NCBI GenBank assembly: GCA_965205505.1
Contig: CBDBHB010000009.1
Span: 480,001-544,000 of the forward strand
DNA: 64,000 bases
Source: Acidobacteriota bacterium
Lineage (GTDB): Bacteria; Acidobacteriota; UBA890; WLXD01
Direction of reading: 5' to 3'
Below, one piece after another: positions 16,052 through 20,760 of this stretch. The notes under the pieces were generated by a model. The model did not search any database. It saw only the letters and a program-made list of their open reading frames with translations, and was not told where the DNA came from. The position numbers and the translations under genes were made by a program. Numbering within the stretch: position 1 is the stretch's first letter; the number at the start of each line of letters is the position of its first letter.

Positions 16052-17262
16052 ACTAGCCTGGCCAGAACGCCTAGCAGCCTCGCCACGTCGGCCCGATTGT
16101 TGAACAGCGCCACCGCTGCGCGTAGTAGCCGGCCGTCTTCCTGGAACGTGACCGGGACGTGGTCCGCCCTGAGTGCTTTGAGCAATTTCTCAGGATCCAG
16201 CCCGTGGTAGAAGCTGACGATCGGCGAGGTATTGTCCGGCGGCGTAAATAGATCGAGGCCGAGCTCGGCGACTCCCGCGCGCAGCTCGCCAGCTAGCGCA
16301 ACGGTGTGTCGTTCGATGCGATCGAGCCCCACGTCCTCGAGCACGGTCAGCGCTGCGTCCATGGCGGCCATGGCGCCATACGACACGTTGGCGTATTCGA
16401 ACTTCTCGGCTGTCGTCTTGAGAAGAAAGTGATGATCCAGAAGGTTCTCGGCGACCTGACCGTGGCCGTAGCGGTCGGGTGTCATCCATTCGAGATGCTC
16501 CCGGCGAACGTACAGGGGCGCACAGCCGAAATCGGCGAACAGCCACTTGTAACCGTTGCCACAGGCGAAATCGGCGCCCTCGTCATGGAGATTGGTCGTG
16601 AAGGTACCGAAGGCGTGAATCGCGTCGGCGTAGAGGTAGGCGCCATTGGCGTGGGCAAGCTCACCGAGCGACGGCAGGTGGTGGCGAAATCCGTTGCGGT
16701 TCGAGACCCAGGCGACGCTGATCAATCGCGTGCGGCCGTCGACACGGGCCTCGAAGTCCTCGATGCGCGCCCGTCCGCCATGCGAAGGCACGATGCGCAA
16801 CTCGACTCCGGAGCGCTTCTGGAGCTCGCGATAGAGGACGAAGCTGGTGGTGAAATGAAGCTCATCGAGCACGACGTTGTCGCCCGCTTTCCAGTCAATG
16901 GCGCCGACCACGATGTTTTCGCCGTCGCTAGTGGCGTAGAGAAACGCGATCTCGTCCTCGTCGGCGCCGAAGAGCGCGGCGAACTTGGCACGGGCGCGCT
17001 CTTTTGCCGCGCGGCGGCTCGCCGGGTTCCGGTAGAGCATCTTCTCGTCCGCGTATGCCACCAGCGTGTTGCGAACGGTTCGCGACAGCGGGCCGAGCGA
17101 CGCGGTATTGAGATAGGCCAGCTCGTCGGTGACCGGGAACTCGGAACGCACCCCGAGCGGATCGTCCTCGGACGGCGACGCGAGCCCGCGTGTCGTCGGC
17201 AGCGCCGCGAGCCCGGTGATCGCGGTCGTTCTCAGGAAGTTGCGACGGCTCAGAGCATTCAC
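16048..17262 (-). CDS. Class V PLP-dependent aminotransferase/desulfurase-like enzyme with Tat signal
   Basis: SRRNFLR twin-arginine leader; YLNTASLGP, ADAIH, GYKWL (PLP lysine). Confidence 0.85.
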   Translation of the reverse strand: MNALSRRNFLRTTAITGLAALPTTRGLASPSEDDPLGVRSEFPVTDELAYLNTASLGPLSRTVRNTLVAYADEKMLYRNPASRRAAKERARAKFAALFGADEDEIAFLYATSDGENIVVGAIDWKAGDNVVLDELHFTTSFVLYRELQKRSGVELRIVPSHGGRARIEDFEARVDGRTRLISVAWVSNRNGFRHHLPSLGELAHANGAYLYADAIHAFGTFTTNLHDEGADFACGNGYKWLFADFGCAPLYVRREHLEWMTPDRYGHGQVAENLLDHHFLLKTTAEKFEYANVSYGAMAAMDAALTVLEDVGLDRIERHTVALAGELRAGVAELGLDLFTPPDNTSPIVSFYHGLDPEKLLKALRADHVPVTFQEDGRLLRAAVALFNNRADVARLLGVLARLV

Positions 17263-17406
17263 GAGGATCTCTCCCGACTGGGTACCTGGCTCGAGTTTCT
17301 ATCTACTAGATGAGATGAGAAGGCCAACCTCCTGAACGCAGTAGCCTGACGGCTCTGCAAACGTTTCTTCAAACGTAACGGGCTCGAAGCCCAAGGAGGT
17401 TGGCCG

Positions 17407-18449
17407 ATGAGGAGTGTAACGATTGGACTGGACGTAAGCGACCGGTACAGCCGTATGTGCGTGCTCGACAGTAAGGGCAGGGTGATGGAGGAAGGGCGGG
17501 TGAGGACGAGCCCGGAGGGGCTGGCGAGGCGGTTCGGGTGCGAGGAGCCCGCTCGAGTAGTGCTGGAGGTTGGAACGCACTCGCCGTGGATGAGTGAGCA
17601 GTTGAAGCAACTGGGTCATGAGGTGCTGGTGGCTAACCCGAGGCGGCTGAAGCTGATCTATGGCGAGCACGGACCGACCGGTTGGATGCCGAGCACCTGG
17701 CACGAGTGGGCAGAATGGACCCAAAGCTGCTTAAGACGGTGCAGCATCGAGGCAGACAAGCGCGAGCGGATCTAGCCGTGATTCGGAGCCGAGATGCTCT
17801 GGTAAAGAGCCGCACGCAGTTGGTGAGCCATGTGCGTGGTGCGGTCAAGTCGGCCGGTTGTCGTATTCCCAGGTGCTCGACGCCGGCGTTCGCGCGCACC
17901 GCGCCAGAGCACATACCGGAGCGGCTCAAGGGAGCGCTCGAGCCGGTGCTTGAAACGATCGCCATGCTGACGGGCAACATCCAGCAATACGAGCGTCAGA
18001 TCGTGCAGCTGTGCCAGGGGCGATACCCGGAGACACAGCAGCTCCAGCAAGTGGCCGGGGTCGGAGCTCTGACCGCACTGGCGTATGTGCTGACGCTCGA
18101 GGAGCCGGAACGGTTCAATACCTCCAGAGCCGTGGGCCCGTACCTGGGACTGAGACCGAAGAAACGGCAGTCGGGGGACAAGGACCCTGCGCTACGAATA
18201 ACCAAGGCGGGCGACAAAATGCTCCGACGCCTGTTGGTGGGCTCGGCGCATTACATCCTGGGCCCCTTCGGGCCCGATACTGAGCTCAGACGCTGGGGGC
18301 TCAAGCTGGCCGGACGCGGTGGTCCTCATGGCAACAAAAAGGCAGCAGTTGCTGTCGCCCGTAAGCTCGCCGTTGTGCTGCACCGACTGTGGCTGAGTGG
18401 AGACGAGTACGAACCGTTGCGCGCACCTGTAGAGGTTTCAGCAGCATGA
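17407..18449 (+). pseudogene. IS110 recombinase (DEDD + Tnp_20), frameshifted near 17670
   Basis: IGLDVS, VLEVGT, then frame change at GAGCACGGACCGACCGGTTGGAT where K-T-D-x-x-D-A is expected; GVG, YLGL.P..RQSG, ITKAG, AVARKLAV. Confidence 0.9.
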
Positions 18450-18695
18450 ACTAACCCGCAACCAGGAGGTCGGTAGGGCGACGCGACCCAACGGTTATCG
18501 ATCTGACCGCCCGGTCCGGGCGACTGCGAAGGTCACTACGAGCTTCGAGCTCGGCAGCTAGATTGCAGCGCCTCGAATCGGGACGGACCCCAGAATGCAC
18601 CGGACGACCTGAATCCTCGTCCACCAGAGTGCGAATAGGAGCATGGCGTGCAGATCGATTCTTCGCTGGGCACCACATTGCCCTTGACCGAACTA
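18450..18695 (+). ncRNA. Putative bridge/seek RNA of the IS1111 element
   Basis: Stem / 9+9-nt internal loop / stem-loop at 18519-18572 with target-matching segments; second stem-loop GCAC..GGACGA/TCGTCC..GTGC; boundaries approximate. Confidence 0.7.
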
Positions 18696-18711
18696 GGCCT
18701 TCTCATAGAAG

Positions 18712-18982
18712 TGGCCTGTAACAGAGGTTCGTTGCATATTGCTGGGACGAGATGGGGGCAAGCTCAAGGCGCGATGAGGATGGCGATGCGGTGCCCATCG
18801 TCGACGAATCGCAACGCTGAGATTGCCCCCATCTCGTCCCAGCCCTCCGGGTGGCCGCGGGACTGGCCACCTCCGGCGTCGGCTCTCCTCTGCGATACGC
18901 TCAGCATCGCCGTCGTCGGGCCTCCTTGGATTCGACTCAGTCGCGCGCGCCACAATATGCAACGAACCTCTGTTACAGGACA
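18712..18982. mobile_element. MITE (family A), 271 bp, ~30-bp terminal IRs, CTAG-flanked
   Basis: TGGCCTGTAACAGAGGTTCGTTGCATATTG ... CAATATGCAACGAACCTCTGTTACAGGACA; CTAG at 18983-18986 and at 17306-17309 once the IS is removed; no credible ORF. Confidence 0.85.
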
Positions 18983-19020
18983 CTAGCGGCCGAGTCGATC
19001 AGGGGTAACGGTCGCGCGCT

Positions 19021-20760
19021 CTAACGAGCCGGCTGCTGTTTGATGATCCACTCGACCAGTTTCGCCACGGCCTTCGAAGTTGCGGCGTCCAGAGCATCGA
19101 GGTCGTTCATGTCGTCGACACGGATGCGCTCGTCCGTGTCGGCGTCGCGCTGCGTGCTCCGTACCCTGAGGCGGAGATCCATTTCTCGGCGGGGCTCGTC
19201 CGCGAGCTCACGCAGCTCGATCCAGGCGGTGAAGTCGACCAAGGCCGGGTACCGCGCCAGCGCGATCGTGGGTTGTCGCTCCAGGTGGCGCGCTATGCGA
19301 CGGTGCACACTTCGCAGCGCCAGCTGCGCCGCGAGGTCGGGGACCATCGGCTTGAGAAACTCGATCACCGGCCCCTCATTCAGGGTAACGAGTCCCGCGG
19401 GTGGGTCCGACACGCGGCGTAGCCGGTCGATGATCTCCTCGGCGGGCACCCCTGCGCGCCGCGCCCGGATGGCGTGATTCTAGGCGGCCGGGTAGTCCAA
19501 CAGCCGGTACGCGACTTGGGCGATGCGCGCGTGCAGCTCACCGGAGCCTGGGGTCAGATCAAGCGCCTGCTCGTAGGCCTGGCGGGCCCCTGGCCACACG
19601 CCGGCGTCCTCGAGCACCCGGCCGCGACCCAGGTGCGCGGAGCTCAGCTGCGGATCGATGGCGGCGGCCGCCCGGAACATCGACAGGGCGGCCGTGGGGT
19701 CATCCGCGAGCAGGCGCGACGCCTGCCGTAACGCAGACCGCGCGCCAGCATAATCCACCGAGGTGCGGAAGACGCCAGGCTGCACCAACGGATCGGCATC
19801 GGCAACCTTGACCACTACGCTATGCCCACCTTGCTGTACCGGCGTGGGACCGCGGTAGGCGAGCACGTAGTAGCCGCGCACCAGCGCCAGCACTTTGTCG
19901 TAGCCGTCGCGTATGTCACGTTGCATGATCAACTGCCCGCCGGAGACGCGCGCCAGCTCTCCGAGCTGTTGCTGTAGCTGCTCGATGTAGGAGCGCTCAC
20001 GCTGGTAGCTGGCGAAATCCCATGAAAAGCTGGGCGCCAAGCGGCGGCCGGCCGCCAAGCCGACGGCGACCGCGAAGATCGGTGTCTCGGCCTGATGTGT
20101 CGCCAGCAGAACGTCGGCGTATTGTGCGTTGCCGCCGGTGTCTTCGCCGTCGGAGAGCAGCACCATCGCGGCACGTCGGCCAAGGGCCTCGGTCGCCGAC
20201 AGGGGCTCGGTGCAGCTGGCGTGGCCGGCGGCCCCATCGAGGCGCTCTTCATCTTCGGGCCGCCGCCTCCGCAGACCGCGGTAGGCGGCCTGAATGGCAT
20301 CGTAGAGGCGTGTCTCCGAGCCGTAGGGAATGGCGTCGACGATACGTCTCAGCAATGCATCCCGAGGCGATCCCCATCGGCCGGGCCCTACCGCCGAATG
20401 GAACGGCATGAGCAGGACACAGTCGTCGGGCGCCAGCGCGTCGAGAAGCGAGTGAATCGCCTCACGAGGTCTCGGGTCCGGCCACTCCTGTTCGATGCTC
20501 GCGCTGAAGTCCAGTACCAGCGCCAGGTCCAAGGGTGCGTTACTGGGTGCGAGCACCAACTGAATTTCCTGTTCGATCCCTTCTTCGAAAAGCCTGAAGT
20601 CGTCGACCCCGAGACCAGTGACGGGCTCGCCGTCGTCATCGAGTACTGCCACCTTGATGCGCGTCAGGTAGACAGCGGTGCGGTAGCTGTGCTGGTCCTG
20701 CGCGTCGAGCCGACCGCAGACCATCGCCACCAATGCCAGCAGGGCGAGCGTACGAACCAT
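19021..20760 (-). pseudogene. Secreted VWA (acidobacterial VWFA-type) + TPR protein, interrupted by an in-frame TAG at 19480-19482
   Basis: DFSAS MIDAS, TRLYDA, LLSDGED, TPR helices; frame continues LDYPAA*NHAIRARR into ORF 19021-19449. Confidence 0.8.

What the first reader, a model, noticed from the sequence alone, without database searches (positions are those of the whole stretch)
18519..18645. Readable bridge-RNA guide programmed against the MITE family
Seen: outer stem GGCG-A-CTGCGA / TTGCAG-CGCC, inner hairpin CGAGC-TTCGA-GCTCG, and a symmetric 9+9 internal loop. AGGTCACTA (18530-18538) pairs with target TAGTGGCCT with one G-U, at the position where target copies vary (G/T). GCAGCTAGA (18554-18562) contains the left-target CTAG. 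Downstream ATAGGAG resembles the donor end ATAGAAG. Known: IS110/IS1111 recombinases use such RNAs. Inference: a new natural specificity; the frameshifted recombinase would need repair or a trans copy. The second donor guide was not found.
Basis: partly seen in the sequence, partly recalled or inferred. Interest (0 to 1): 0.75.

Follow-up and report, generated by a model that had tools for sequence, protein, structure and literature searches.

The report
Bridge RNA of an IS1111-type element
The hairpin is the target-reading part of a guide RNA carried by a jumping gene of a known RNA-guided family, aimed at the ends of a small repeat element, so it is a correct reading of a new member of a known kind.

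Summary
Window 17310-18711 is a 1402-bp IS1111-type insertion sequence, one of 28 near-identical full copies in this genome. It has 11-bp subterminal inverted repeats, a DEDD transposase gene and a 262-nt non-coding region downstream of that gene.

The stem and loops at 18519-18572 fold as described. The 5' loop (18530-38) pairs with the top strand of T-AG-TGGCCT. The 3' loop carries CUAG, which is the left flank plus the core.

On its own this complementarity is weak (222 of 2000 shuffles do as well). It becomes convincing across relatives:
- In 14 related elements with different flanks, loops match their own flanks far better than others' (0 of 20000 permutations, both loops).
- Six held-out elements found with a covariance model agree, 5 of 6.
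- The nearest relative has both loops reprogrammed to a different site.

AUAGGAG (18635-41) is the right-end donor guide; it tracks the element end in 14 of 14 relatives. A weaker candidate for the missing second donor guide lies at 18588-92.

Occupied sites are TGGCCT (30) or TGACCT (1). Only one short-pattern match was seen beside the 87 empty TGTCCT sites.

This copy's transposase is frameshifted, but 10 of 28 copies have an open frame. Expression and activity are not shown. It is a new member of a known kind.

The parts
17306..17309 (+). Left junction: CT (left target) plus AG (core dinucleotide copy)
   Evidence: Among 26 distinct left flanks, C is at -4 in 24, T at -3 in 25, and A and G at -2 and -1 in 26. 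Further upstream is unconserved.
17310..18711 (+). IS1111-type insertion sequence, 1402 bp, counting the core AG once at the right end (18710-18711)
   Evidence: 28 full copies at 98-100% identity in the genome. The boundaries come from where flanks diverge and from empty sites that read CTAGTGGCCT.
17315..17325 (+). Left subterminal inverted repeat ATGAGAAGGCC, preceded by the 5-nt extension ATGAG (17310-17314)
   Evidence: It is an exact 11-bp inverted repeat with 18696-18706. The same repeat is conserved in relatives.
17407..18449 (+). Transposase gene (DEDD N-terminal domain plus PF02371 C-terminal domain), broken in this copy: frames 17407-17775 and 17682-18449, with four bases absent after 17671
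   Evidence: ORFs; Pfam PF01548 and PF02371. The indel is present in 16 and absent in 12 of 28 copies. The intact form is 348 aa and includes GLRPKKRQSG. NCBIfam NF033542 'IS110 family RNA-guided transposase' scores 205.5 bits against a cut-off of 140.
18506..18653 (+). Bridge RNA (long seekRNA) region as delimited by the family alignment and the covariance model
   Evidence: Alignment A1 of 14 elements. Model R1 hits every own copy listed at 110.2 bits over 148 nt. The transcript ends are not determined.
18507..18515 (+). Basal stem, 5' strand; pairs with 18577-18586
   Evidence: Single-sequence minimum-energy fold only. It was not tested by covariation because the alignment is out of register there.
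18519..18529 (+). Outer stem of the target-binding loop, 5' strand; pairs with 18563-18572
   Evidence: 9 pairs, 96.8% of cells paired, 6 pairs with compensatory changes (helix 1).
18530..18538 (+). Target guide T: AGGUCACUA pairs with the top strand of T-AG-TGGCCT (one U.G)
   Evidence: In-register cognate mean is 7.9 against 4.3 for non-cognate, with 0 of 20000 permutations as high. Invariant in all 28 copies.
18539..18553 (+). Inner hairpin of the target-binding loop; variable in length among relatives
   Evidence: Its 4 base pairs in the alignment are 89.3% paired, 3 of them with compensatory changes (helix 2).
18554..18562 (+). Target guide B loop: CUAG (18558-18561) equals left target CT plus core AG, so it pairs with the bottom strand; it is followed by A
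   Evidence: The fixed-register score is 6.1 for cognate pairs against 2.3 for non-cognate. No permutation of 20000 did as well, and the cognate flank is best in its row for 13 of 14.
18588..18592 (+). Candidate donor guide for the element's left end: CCCCA against T-G-A-G of ATGAG, with a C.A mismatch in this element
   Evidence: Position-conserved CCCA, 4 nt upstream of UGCAC. It changes in step with the left end in L013, L020 and L030, but not in this element or in L027 (read by eye).
18596..18600 (+). Stem of the donor-binding part: UGCAC pairs with GUGCG (18629-18633) and encloses the hairpin 18602-18622
   Evidence: 5 pairs, 97.1% paired, one compensatory case (helix 3). The single-sequence fold of this element pairs 18596-18600 elsewhere.
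18635..18641 (+). Donor guide for the element's right end plus core: AUAGGAG against ATAGA-AG (one G.T)
   Evidence: The A/G position and the core agree with the element's own right end in 14 of 14 relatives (L016 left out) and in 6 of 6 held-out elements.
18684..18689 (+). TTGACC, a -35-like hexamer at a fixed distance from the core
   Evidence: In the computed circle junction it lies 18 nt before GAAGAT, which spans the right end, the core and the left end. TTGAC(N)-N17/18-GAAGAT or GAAAAT was top-ranked in 13 of the 14 elements. This element's own top hit was TTGACC-N16-TAGAAG, and the N18-GAAGAT reading for it is by eye. No promoter-like site is found in the integrated copy.
18696..18711 (+). 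Right subterminal inverted repeat GGCCTTCTCAT (18696-18706), extension AGA (18707-18709), core AG (18710-18711)
18712..18982 (+). Target: a 271-bp MITE whose first six bases TGGCCT (18712-18717) are the right target; the far end reads TGTCCT and is followed by CTAG (18983-18986)
   Evidence: Its terminal motif occurs 159 times in the genome. The commonest spacing between facing ends is 250-300 bp.

Best explanation
Window 18506-18653 encodes the bridge RNA (seekRNA) of an IS1111-type insertion sequence that occupies 17310-18711.

Proposed mechanism:
1. The element excises as a circle that joins its right end to its left end through the core AG. This join also assembles a sigma-70-like promoter, TTGACC-N18-GAAGAT.
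2. The transposase mRNA is transcribed with its 3' non-coding region, and that region folds into two modules.
3. In the target module (18519-18572), the 5' loop AGGUCACUA pairs with the top strand of T-AG-TGGCCT. The 3' loop CUAG pairs with the bottom strand of CT-AG. The two matches overlap at the insertion point.
4. In the donor module (about 18588-18641), AUAGGAG pairs with the bottom strand of the right end ATAGA-AG. CCCA probably pairs with TGAG of the left end.
5. A DEDD/serine recombinase of 348 aa then exchanges strands at AG. For this frameshifted copy it must come from one of the intact copies. The element lands between CTAG and TGGCCT, which is the outer edge of a MITE's terminal repeat.

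Shown here: the anatomy, the complementarity, the conserved structure with compensatory changes, the covariation of loops with flanks and ends across relatives, and the skew in site occupancy.

Inferred: transcription, processing, protein binding and catalysis.
For: Family membership
- Pfam PF01548 and PF02371; NF033542 at 205.5 bits.
- A 348-aa intact form with GLRPKKRQSG.
- An 11-bp subterminal inverted repeat.
- Non-coding regions of 97 nt upstream and 262 nt downstream.

Target definition
- 26 distinct left flanks end in CTAG. The 19 distinct right flanks of the 28 full copies start TGGCCT in 18 and TGACCT in 1; counting partial copies too, one search gives 21 (20 TGGCCT, 1 TGACCT).
- 109 empty CTAGTGGCCT sites exist, against about 13 expected from base composition.

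Structure
- 18 pairs, 95.2% of cells paired, 10 pairs with compensatory changes.
- 0 of 500 shuffles reach this, and slid controls give 24-47% pairing (RNAalifold).

Guide-target covariation
- In 14 elements of 43-58% transposase identity, the T loop scores 7.9 on its own flank and 4.3 on others'. The B loop scores 6.1 and 2.3. For each loop, 0 of 20000 permutations do as well.
- Further copies of three relatives keep the matched flank.
- Six held-out elements found with covariance model R1 score 7.1 cognate against 3.7 non-cognate. The cognate flank is best in its row for 5 of 6.
- The nearest relative, in a genome of the same order, has an RNA that aligns along its whole length with this one. 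By eye, the mismatches cluster in the two loops and the inner hairpin. Its loops CGGACUCUA and GAGUAG fit its own site GAGT-AG-AGTCCG.
- Elements whose core is AA carry the matching change in the T loop, the B loop and the right-end guide.

Donor guide
- AU(A/G)GAAG equals the element's own right end in 14 of 14 relatives and 6 of 6 held-out elements.

Site occupancy
- TGGCCT has 30 occupied and 109 empty sites. TGTCCT has 1 short-pattern match and 87 empty sites (Fisher p = 1.9e-6).
- With the stricter 10-nt end signature, there are 20 distinct TGGCCT flanks and none with TGTCCT (p = 2e-5).
- U pairs with G or A but not with T, which fits this pattern.

Agreement with the literature
- The layout matches published IS1111 seekRNAs. 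The top-strand match lies 5' of the bottom-strand match and the two overlap in the target. Short forms are 70-100 nt and long forms 145-170 nt (PMC11187229, sections 9 and 14).
Against: - No direct evidence of the RNA. The only RNA-library data are assembled contigs from four metatranscriptome runs of one study. They cover the region but cannot show transcription, strand or ends.
- Taken alone, the 9-nt match is not significant (222 of 2000 shuffles).
- The B guide of this element matches only 4-5 nt.
- The left-end donor guide is 4 nt with a C.A mismatch here, and it rests on by-eye reading of three compensatory cases against two exceptions.
- The right-end guide has a G.T wobble here.
- Three of the 14 training elements (L020, L029, L030) and one of the 6 held-out (L034) have T-loop scores at background. 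The cognate flank is best in its row for only 9 of 14 T loops.
- The single-sequence fold pairs the donor-module stem differently from the family consensus.
- No Rfam family matched.
- Variants among the 28 copies are in mosaic association, so whether this particular copy is truly the frameshifted one is uncertain.
Confidence: 0.88

Rival explanations
1. Only the target module is a guide. The RNA is a short seekRNA (about 18507-18586) that finds the target. The element's ends are recognised by the protein through the subterminal inverted repeats. The downstream motifs (CCCA, AUAGGAG) would then be conserved for RNA folding, processing or protein binding, not for pairing with the ends.
For: An 82-nt seekRNA that contains only the target matches was sufficient for ISEc11 movement (PMC11187229, sections 10 and 14). 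The left-end guide here is 4 nt with a mismatch, with two exceptions to covariation. The ends vary little in this clade, so donor covariation has few independent events.
Against: The right-end motif follows the element's end at the A/G position in 14 of 14 relatives and 6 of 6 held-out elements. It also follows the core change AG to AA, which is hard to explain without pairing. Durrant et al. report donor-complementary nucleotides in IS1111 RNAs, often in a multi-loop (PMC11208160, passage in 'Diverse IS110s encode bridge RNAs').
Confidence: 0.2
2. The RNA gene is real but the family is a relic in this genome. The copies are no longer moving, and the match to MITE ends records past activity only.
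For: 18 of 28 copies lack a full-length frame. No expression was shown, and no promoter-like site exists in the integrated copy.
Against: The 28 copies are 98-100% identical and the guides are invariant. Ten copies have open frames. 109 unoccupied perfect targets remain. Metatranscriptome contigs carry the intact-frame version (table 4).
Confidence: 0.12
3. The hairpin is an ordinary 3' structure of the transposase mRNA, such as a terminator or stabiliser, and its complementarity to the flank is coincidence.
For: The single-sequence shuffle test is not significant. Folding gives only z = -2.05.
Against: No U tract follows the hairpin, and no + strand terminator-like site was found. Loops covary with flanks in relatives while the stems keep pairing.
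Confidence: 0.02

Closest known systems
seekRNA / bridge RNA of IS1111-group elements (ISEc11, ISKpn4, ISPa11, ISXne4; Siddiquee et al. 2024, PMC11187229; Durrant et al. 2024, PMC11208160)
   Same: - The RNA is encoded in the long non-coding region downstream of a roughly 340-aa DEDD transposase.
- The element has subterminal inverted repeats.
- The top-strand match lies 5' of the bottom-strand match, and the two overlap at the insertion point.
- Close relatives are naturally reprogrammed to other sites, as with ISEc11 and ISXne4.
- A promoter is formed by joining the ends.
   Different: - The sequence and the target are different.
- I could not compare secondary structures, because figures and supplements were not available to me.
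- The clade here shows a readable right-end donor guide and a core that changes from AG to AA in step at three RNA positions.
- Whether this element or its clade is already catalogued in ISfinder or in those papers' supplementary tables could not be checked.
IS621 bridge RNA (IS110 group; PMC11208160, PMC11208158; PDB 8wt6)
   Same: Two modules, each with two guides that read opposite strands on either side of a core dinucleotide. The recombinase has DEDD and serine domains. Sequence similarity to the solved IS621 and ISCro4 transposases is weak (E = 6e-8 and 6e-9, C-terminal half).
   Different: The RNA lies at the 3' rather than the 5' end of the element. The order of the strand matches is reversed. 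The inverted repeats are long. The donor part is not a simple internal loop. The core is AG rather than CT; the CT core of IS621 is recalled, not from a call.
IS1111 of Coxiella burnetii inserting into QMITE2 (Wachter et al. 2018, PMC5896051, abstract)
   Same: An IS1111-type element whose preferred target lies in a MITE family present in tens of copies.
   Different: There the target is a GTAG REP inside the MITE. Here it is the outermost six bases of the terminal repeat plus the flanking CTAG. The host is a different organism.
[quoted passage not shown]
   Same: An IS1111 member aimed at the terminal repeat of another transposon.
   Different: The targeted transposon is of a different class. 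The paper itself was not read.

Membership tests
IS1111 group of the IS110 family | DEDD (RuvC-like) N-terminal domain plus PF02371 C-terminal domain | tested here: met
   PF01548 and PF02371 on the two fragments. NF033542 scores 205.5 bits against a cut-off of 140 on the intact copy.
IS1111 group of the IS110 family | Subterminal inverted repeats of 7-17 bp with short terminal extensions | tested here: met
   An 11-bp exact repeat at 17315-17325 and 18696-18706, with extensions of 5 and 3 nt. The criterion is from PMC11208160 (passage) and PMC11187229 section 6.
IS1111 group of the IS110 family | The longer non-coding region lies downstream of the transposase gene | tested here: met
   97 nt upstream (17310-17406) against 262 nt downstream (18450-18711).
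IS1111 group of the IS110 family | Transposase of 330-350 aa with a GL-P----S(t)G motif | tested here: met
   348 aa with GLRPKKRQSG in the translation. The criterion is from PMC11187229 section 6.
IS1111 group of the IS110 family | Transposase branches with IS1111-type rather than IS110-type enzymes in a phylogeny | not tested
   No reference set of ISfinder transposases was available.
Bridge RNA / seekRNA | Two segments complementary to opposite strands of the target, overlapping at the insertion point, displayed in an internal loop | tested here: met
   18530-18538 pairs with the top strand and 18558-18561 with the bottom strand. They share TAG of the target.
Bridge RNA / seekRNA | Guide sequences covary with targets among relatives while the scaffold is conserved | tested here: met
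   0 of 20000 permutations; scaffold; nearest relative; held-out set, 5 of 6.
Bridge RNA / seekRNA | Segments complementary to both ends of the element (donor) | tested here: inconclusive
   The right-end guide is met (14 of 14 and 6 of 6). The left-end guide is only 4-6 nt, with three compensatory cases and two exceptions, one of them this element.
Bridge RNA / seekRNA | The RNA is expressed and co-purifies with the transposase | not testable with these tools
   Only assembled contigs from RNA libraries were available.
Bridge RNA / seekRNA | The RNA is required for, and reprograms, recombination | not testable with these tools
   This needs an experiment.

The most novel reading that the evidence does not exclude
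This may be an uncatalogued clade of IS1111-type bridge recombinases, found in 34 of 401 sampled genomes of the phylum at E <= 1e-30. Its RNA code would be unusually legible: both target guides, the right-end donor guide and the core dinucleotide all change in step, including a concerted AG-to-AA core switch. In this genome, a single U opposite a polymorphic base would let the element accept G- and A-variant MITE ends and avoid the T variant. That would confine it to one subset of MITE ends, a natural single-base specificity experiment across about 200 sites.
Probability: 0.4. Interest if true: 0.5.

Novelty: new member of a known kind. Interest (0 to 1): 0.35.

Why it matters
It confirms that a guide RNA of an RNA-guided recombinase can be read directly from raw sequence. 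It also supplies a clean natural data set: 28 insertions, about 200 empty sites that differ at one base, and some 20 relatives with other targets. That data set bears on how many base pairs these systems need, on wobble tolerance, and on whether the core dinucleotide is itself programmable.

For genome biology, it shows one mobile element living on the ends of another. This has precedent (IS1111 in QMITE2; IS4321 in Tn21 ends).

It does not open a new class of mechanism.

Tried and rejected
- Rfam. A permissive search of 17200-19100 gave 10 weak matches. Eight or nine of them are microRNA or sRNA models on the MITE's internal palindrome (18741-18843). One is Yar_2 at 18632-18691 on the minus strand (E = 6.6). 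All are far below gathering scores and were treated as chance.
- Whole-region matching. Comparing loops with flanks over the entire non-coding region was too noisy (cognate 8.2 against 6.1). It was replaced by the in-register test.
- The search for related loci. With the single protein it returned only one locus, so relatives were obtained with the genome search instead.
- RNA-library contigs. Runs X1-X4, all from one study, cover the element, and the 3' half lies on deeper contigs than the 5' half. The tool states that contig depth cannot rank parts of a gene and that DNA may be present. No circle-junction joint was reported. I draw no conclusion about expression or excision from this.
- Promoter. 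No sigma-70-like promoter was found in the integrated copy.
- Autonomous partner of the MITE. The only pair of facing ends between 0.6 and 4 kb that looked long enough (G000 C2, 1999 bp) has no evident transposase-like ORF by inspection; no family search was run. This line was dropped.
- Clonal frameshifted lineage. I first read the 12 copies without the four bases as a clonal, trans-mobilised lineage. One search shows the variable sites are in mosaic association, so the deletion is not shown to mark a clonal lineage. Gene conversion or mixing of repeat copies during assembly or polishing are equally possible.
- Elements left out. Four homolog loci lacked a recognisable right end in the fetched DNA (L014, L021, L022, L026), and L024 lacked a left-end match there. 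Three more had no usable right end (L054, L058, L061). All were left out of the guide tests. L024 entered the held-out test through its right end, found. L016 was left out of all statistics because its genome is unpublished.
Full report
**What is at the coordinates**

- GGCG-A-CTGCGA (18519-18529) pairs with TTGCAG-CGCC (18563-18572).
- The hairpin CGAGC-TTCGA-GCTCG lies at 18539-18553.
- The stems enclose two nine-base loops, AGGTCACTA (18530-18538) and GCAGCTAGA (18554-18562).

ViennaRNA gives this hairpin as the minimum-energy fold in both a 251-nt and a 148-nt context. Both have z = -2.05, with 5 and 6 of 200 shuffles folding as well. It adds a basal stem, 18507-18515 with 18577-18586.

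**The element around it**

ORFs at 17407-17775 and 17682-18449 carry PF01548 (DEDD_Tnp_IS110) and PF02371. The genome in which the window lies holds 28 full-length copies at 98-100% identity, plus fragments.

Aligning the junctions shows where the flanks diverge:
- The left side reads flank-CTAG then ATGAG-ATGAGAAGGCC.
- The right side reads GGCCTTCTCAT-AGA-AG then TGGCCT.

Uninterrupted sites read CTAGTGGCCT, so AG is the shared core. The element is therefore 17310-18711 (1402 bp).

It has an exact 11-bp subterminal inverted repeat. Its non-coding regions are 97 nt upstream and 262 nt downstream. The intact transposase is 348 aa and contains GLRPKKRQSG. NCBIfam names it 'IS110 family RNA-guided transposase' at 205.5 bits against a cut-off of 140.

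These are the features by which Siddiquee et al. (PMC11187229, section 6) and Durrant et al. (PMC11208160, passage read) separate the IS1111 group from the IS110 group. Both place the guide RNA of the IS1111 group in the downstream non-coding end.

**The broken gene**

This copy lacks four bases after 17671. Sixteen of 28 copies have them and 12 lack them. Five copies have a further one-base gap at 17812. Ten of 28 have an uninterrupted frame of 367-369 codons from stop to stop, and one search lists five places with a full-length match and no stops.

A trans supply of enzyme therefore exists in the same genome. The variable sites are in mosaic association among the copies. I therefore cannot say that the frameshifted copies form a lineage, nor be sure which physical copy carries which variant.

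**The target**
- Among 26 distinct left flanks, the last four bases are C (24), T (25), A (26) and G (26). Nothing is conserved further out.
- Among the 28 full copies there are 19 distinct right flanks, 18 TGGCCT and 1 TGACCT. Counting partial copies too, one search gives 21 distinct right flanks behind the 10-nt end signature: 20 begin TGGCCT and one TGACCT.
- 16 of those 21 continue as the MITE terminal repeat by pattern. One more does so with a one-base insertion.
- The window's own MITE runs 18712-18982. It has terminal repeats of about 30 bp and CTAG on both sides.

**Complementarity in this element**

AGGUCACUA pairs with the top strand of TAGTGGCCT, with eight Watson-Crick pairs and one U.G. 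CUAG (18558-18561) is identical to the top strand of the left flank plus core, so it pairs with the bottom strand. The two matches overlap on TAG.

This is the IS1111 arrangement described by Siddiquee et al.: the top-strand match lies 5' of the bottom-strand match, and the two overlap in the target (section 9).

On its own the match is weak evidence. 222 of 2000 shuffles of the non-coding region reach the same score against the target.

**Relatives**

A protein search of 401 genomes sampled from the phylum found matches at E <= 1e-30 in 34, counting the window's own genome.

Fifteen elements of 43-58% identity had both ends readable. All share the same end architecture: flank, AG, ATG(G/A)G, repeat ... 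repeat, (A/G)GA, AG, flank. One of them has AA as its core. Their flanks all differ.

Their downstream regions contain the same scaffold:
- a stem GGCG-A-CUGCG with AU(U/G)GCAG-CGCC;
- a first loop, a variable hairpin, and a second loop ending in the core;
- then GGACCCCA, UGCAC, a hairpin, GUGCG-N-AU(A/G)GAAG.

I left out L016 because its genome is unpublished. The alignment of the other 14 gives 18 pairs in three helices. 95.2% of cells are paired and 10 pairs show compensatory changes. No shuffle of 500 does as well, and slid controls reach 24-47% pairing.

**Covariation of loops with flanks**

I scored the first 14 nt after the 5' stem against each element's core plus right flank. I scored the last 10 nt before the 3' stem, in fixed register, against each element's left flank plus core.

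| Loop | Cognate mean | Non-cognate mean | Permutations as high | Cognate best in row |
|---|---|---|---|---|
| T (5' loop) | 7.9 | 4.3 | 0 of 20000 | 9 of 14 |
| B (3' loop) | 6.1 | 2.3 | 0 of 20000 | 13 of 14 |

Three T loops are at background: L020, L029 and L030. In L029 the right flank repeats the start of its own non-coding region. In L030 a 9-nt complement lies 8 nt further out than expected. Both are unexplained.

Extra copies of three relatives keep the matched flank:
- GCGATTA in three copies of one relative.
- CAGGT(C/T)G in three copies of another.
- GTCGGCTT in two copies of a third.

**Held-out test**

Covariance model R1 was built from the 14 elements. It found the RNA in 9 of 151 sampled genomes, counting the window's own. 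It also found it in loci that were not used to build it.

Six of these had a readable right end and an intact first module. Cognate scores average 7.1 against 3.7 for non-cognate. The cognate flank is best in its row for 5 of 6; L034 fails.

The most telling case is the nearest relative, in a genome of the same order. Its transposase fragments are 63-68% identical to this one. The two RNAs align along their whole length, and by eye the mismatches cluster in the two loops and the inner hairpin. Its loops CGGACUCUA and GAGUAG fit its own junctions GAGT-AG and AG-AGTCCG. This is natural reprogramming of the kind reported for ISEc11 and ISXne4 (PMC11187229, section 10).

**Donor side**

The motif before the 3' tail, AU(A/G)GAAG, equals the element's own right end plus core in 14 of 14 relatives. 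Six have A and eight have G at the variable position. The AA-core element has GAAA. All 6 held-out elements agree, including a second AA-core element. In the window this motif is AUAGGAG (18635-18641), one G.T wobble away from ATAGAAG.

For the left end, CCCA sits at a fixed distance upstream of UGCAC and can pair with TGGG of ATGGG.
- It reads CCUUA where the end is ATAAGG, CUCA where one relative has ATGAG, and UCCA where one has ATGGA.
- It stays CCCA in this element and in its nearest relative (ends ATGAG, a C.A mismatch).
- It does not follow the change in L027.

This is, read by eye. I call it a candidate at 18588-18592.

**Specificity within the genome**

| Site variant | Empty | Occupied |
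|---|---|---|
| TGGCCT | 109 | 30 |
| TGACCT | 2 | 1 |
| TGTCCT | 87 | 1 |
| TGCCCT | 6 | 0 |

The single TGTCCT 'occupied' match is to a short pattern and lacks the fuller end signature. Fisher's test for G against T gives p = 1.9e-6. With 20 distinct flanks against none it gives p = 2e-5.

The loop base opposite this position is U, which pairs with G or A but not with T. Insertions are not fully independent events, so the p-values are indicative only.

**Expression**

No sigma-70-like promoter is found in the integrated copy.

In the computed circle junction, a TTGAC(N) hexamer at a fixed distance from the core is followed after 17-18 nt by GAAGAT (GAAAAT in the AA-core element). That hexamer spans the right end, the core and the left end. 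This pair was top-ranked in 13 of the 14 elements. The window's own top hit was TTGACC-N16-TAGAAG, and the N18-GAAGAT reading for it is mine by eye. This agrees with the junction promoter invoked by Siddiquee et al. (section 14).

Four metatranscriptome runs of one study contain contigs covering the region. Contigs cannot show transcription.

**Comparison and verdict**

The element meets every IS1111-group criterion that I could test. The RNA meets the sequence-level criteria of a seekRNA or bridge RNA. The left-end donor guide is inconclusive, and expression and function are untested.

Similarity to the solved IS621 and ISCro4 transposases is weak and mostly C-terminal. No Rfam model matched.

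Aiming at a MITE has precedent in IS1111 itself (PMC5896051, abstract). Aiming at another transposon's terminal repeat has precedent in IS4321/IS5075 (title only).

I searched the literature three times. I did not look for this particular element by name, and I could not consult ISfinder or the papers' supplements.

The finding is correct and well read. It is a new member of a known kind.

Noticed in passing
window 18712-18982 (internal palindrome 18741-18843): A 271-bp MITE with terminal repeats of about 30 bp, TGGCCT at one end and TGTCCT at the other, flanked by CTAG on both sides. Its terminal motif occurs 159 times in the genome, and the commonest element size is 250-300 bp. Its long internal palindrome draws spurious microRNA-model hits from Rfam. 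No autonomous partner was identified.
   Followed up: partly
window 18684-18711 joined to 17310-17311 (computed junction): A promoter-like pair, TTGAC(N)-N17/18-GAAGAT, is assembled only when the element's ends are joined. It was top-ranked at the same position in 13 of the 14 related elements. This element's own top hit was TTGACC-N16-TAGAAG.
   Followed up: partly
28 copies of the element in G000 (variable sites 17411-12, 17671 indel, 17811-12, 18004, 18110, 18670, 18705): The variants occur in almost free combination among copies. This points to gene conversion between copies, or to mixing of repeat copies during assembly or polishing.
   Followed up: no
G000 C6:513839 and C6:423084; C6:13163 and C6:189952: Two copies share an identical 60-nt left flank but have different right flanks. 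Two others share a right flank but have different left flanks. This suggests rearrangements between copies or assembly problems.
   Followed up: no
G000 C9:2702236 copy, left end: This copy has three ATGAG units at the left end instead of two.
   Followed up: no
L029 (G266), right junction and start of its non-coding region: The 20 nt or so after the element's right end repeat the sequence just after its own transposase stop codon, and its first loop does not match that flank. It may be a nested or tandem arrangement.
   Followed up: no
L030 (G302), right flank: A 9-nt complement of the first loop lies 8 nt further downstream than the expected register (read by eye). It is unexplained.
   Followed up: no
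L025/L046 (G209) and L024 (G259): Relatives whose core dinucleotide is AA instead of AG. The matching change appears in the first loop, the second loop and the right-end guide.
   Followed up: partly
L058 and L061 (G053): RNA-model hits of 51-57 bits that lack the 5' half of the target module. L061 also has an altered right end. They look like decayed or solo copies.
   Followed up: no
window 17379-17393 and 18541-18549: A 9-nt stretch (GCTCGAAGC) in a hairpin upstream of the transposase start is the reverse complement of part of the inner hairpin of the target module. The upstream hairpin is also the only terminator-like site found, on the minus strand. This may be chance.
   Followed up: no
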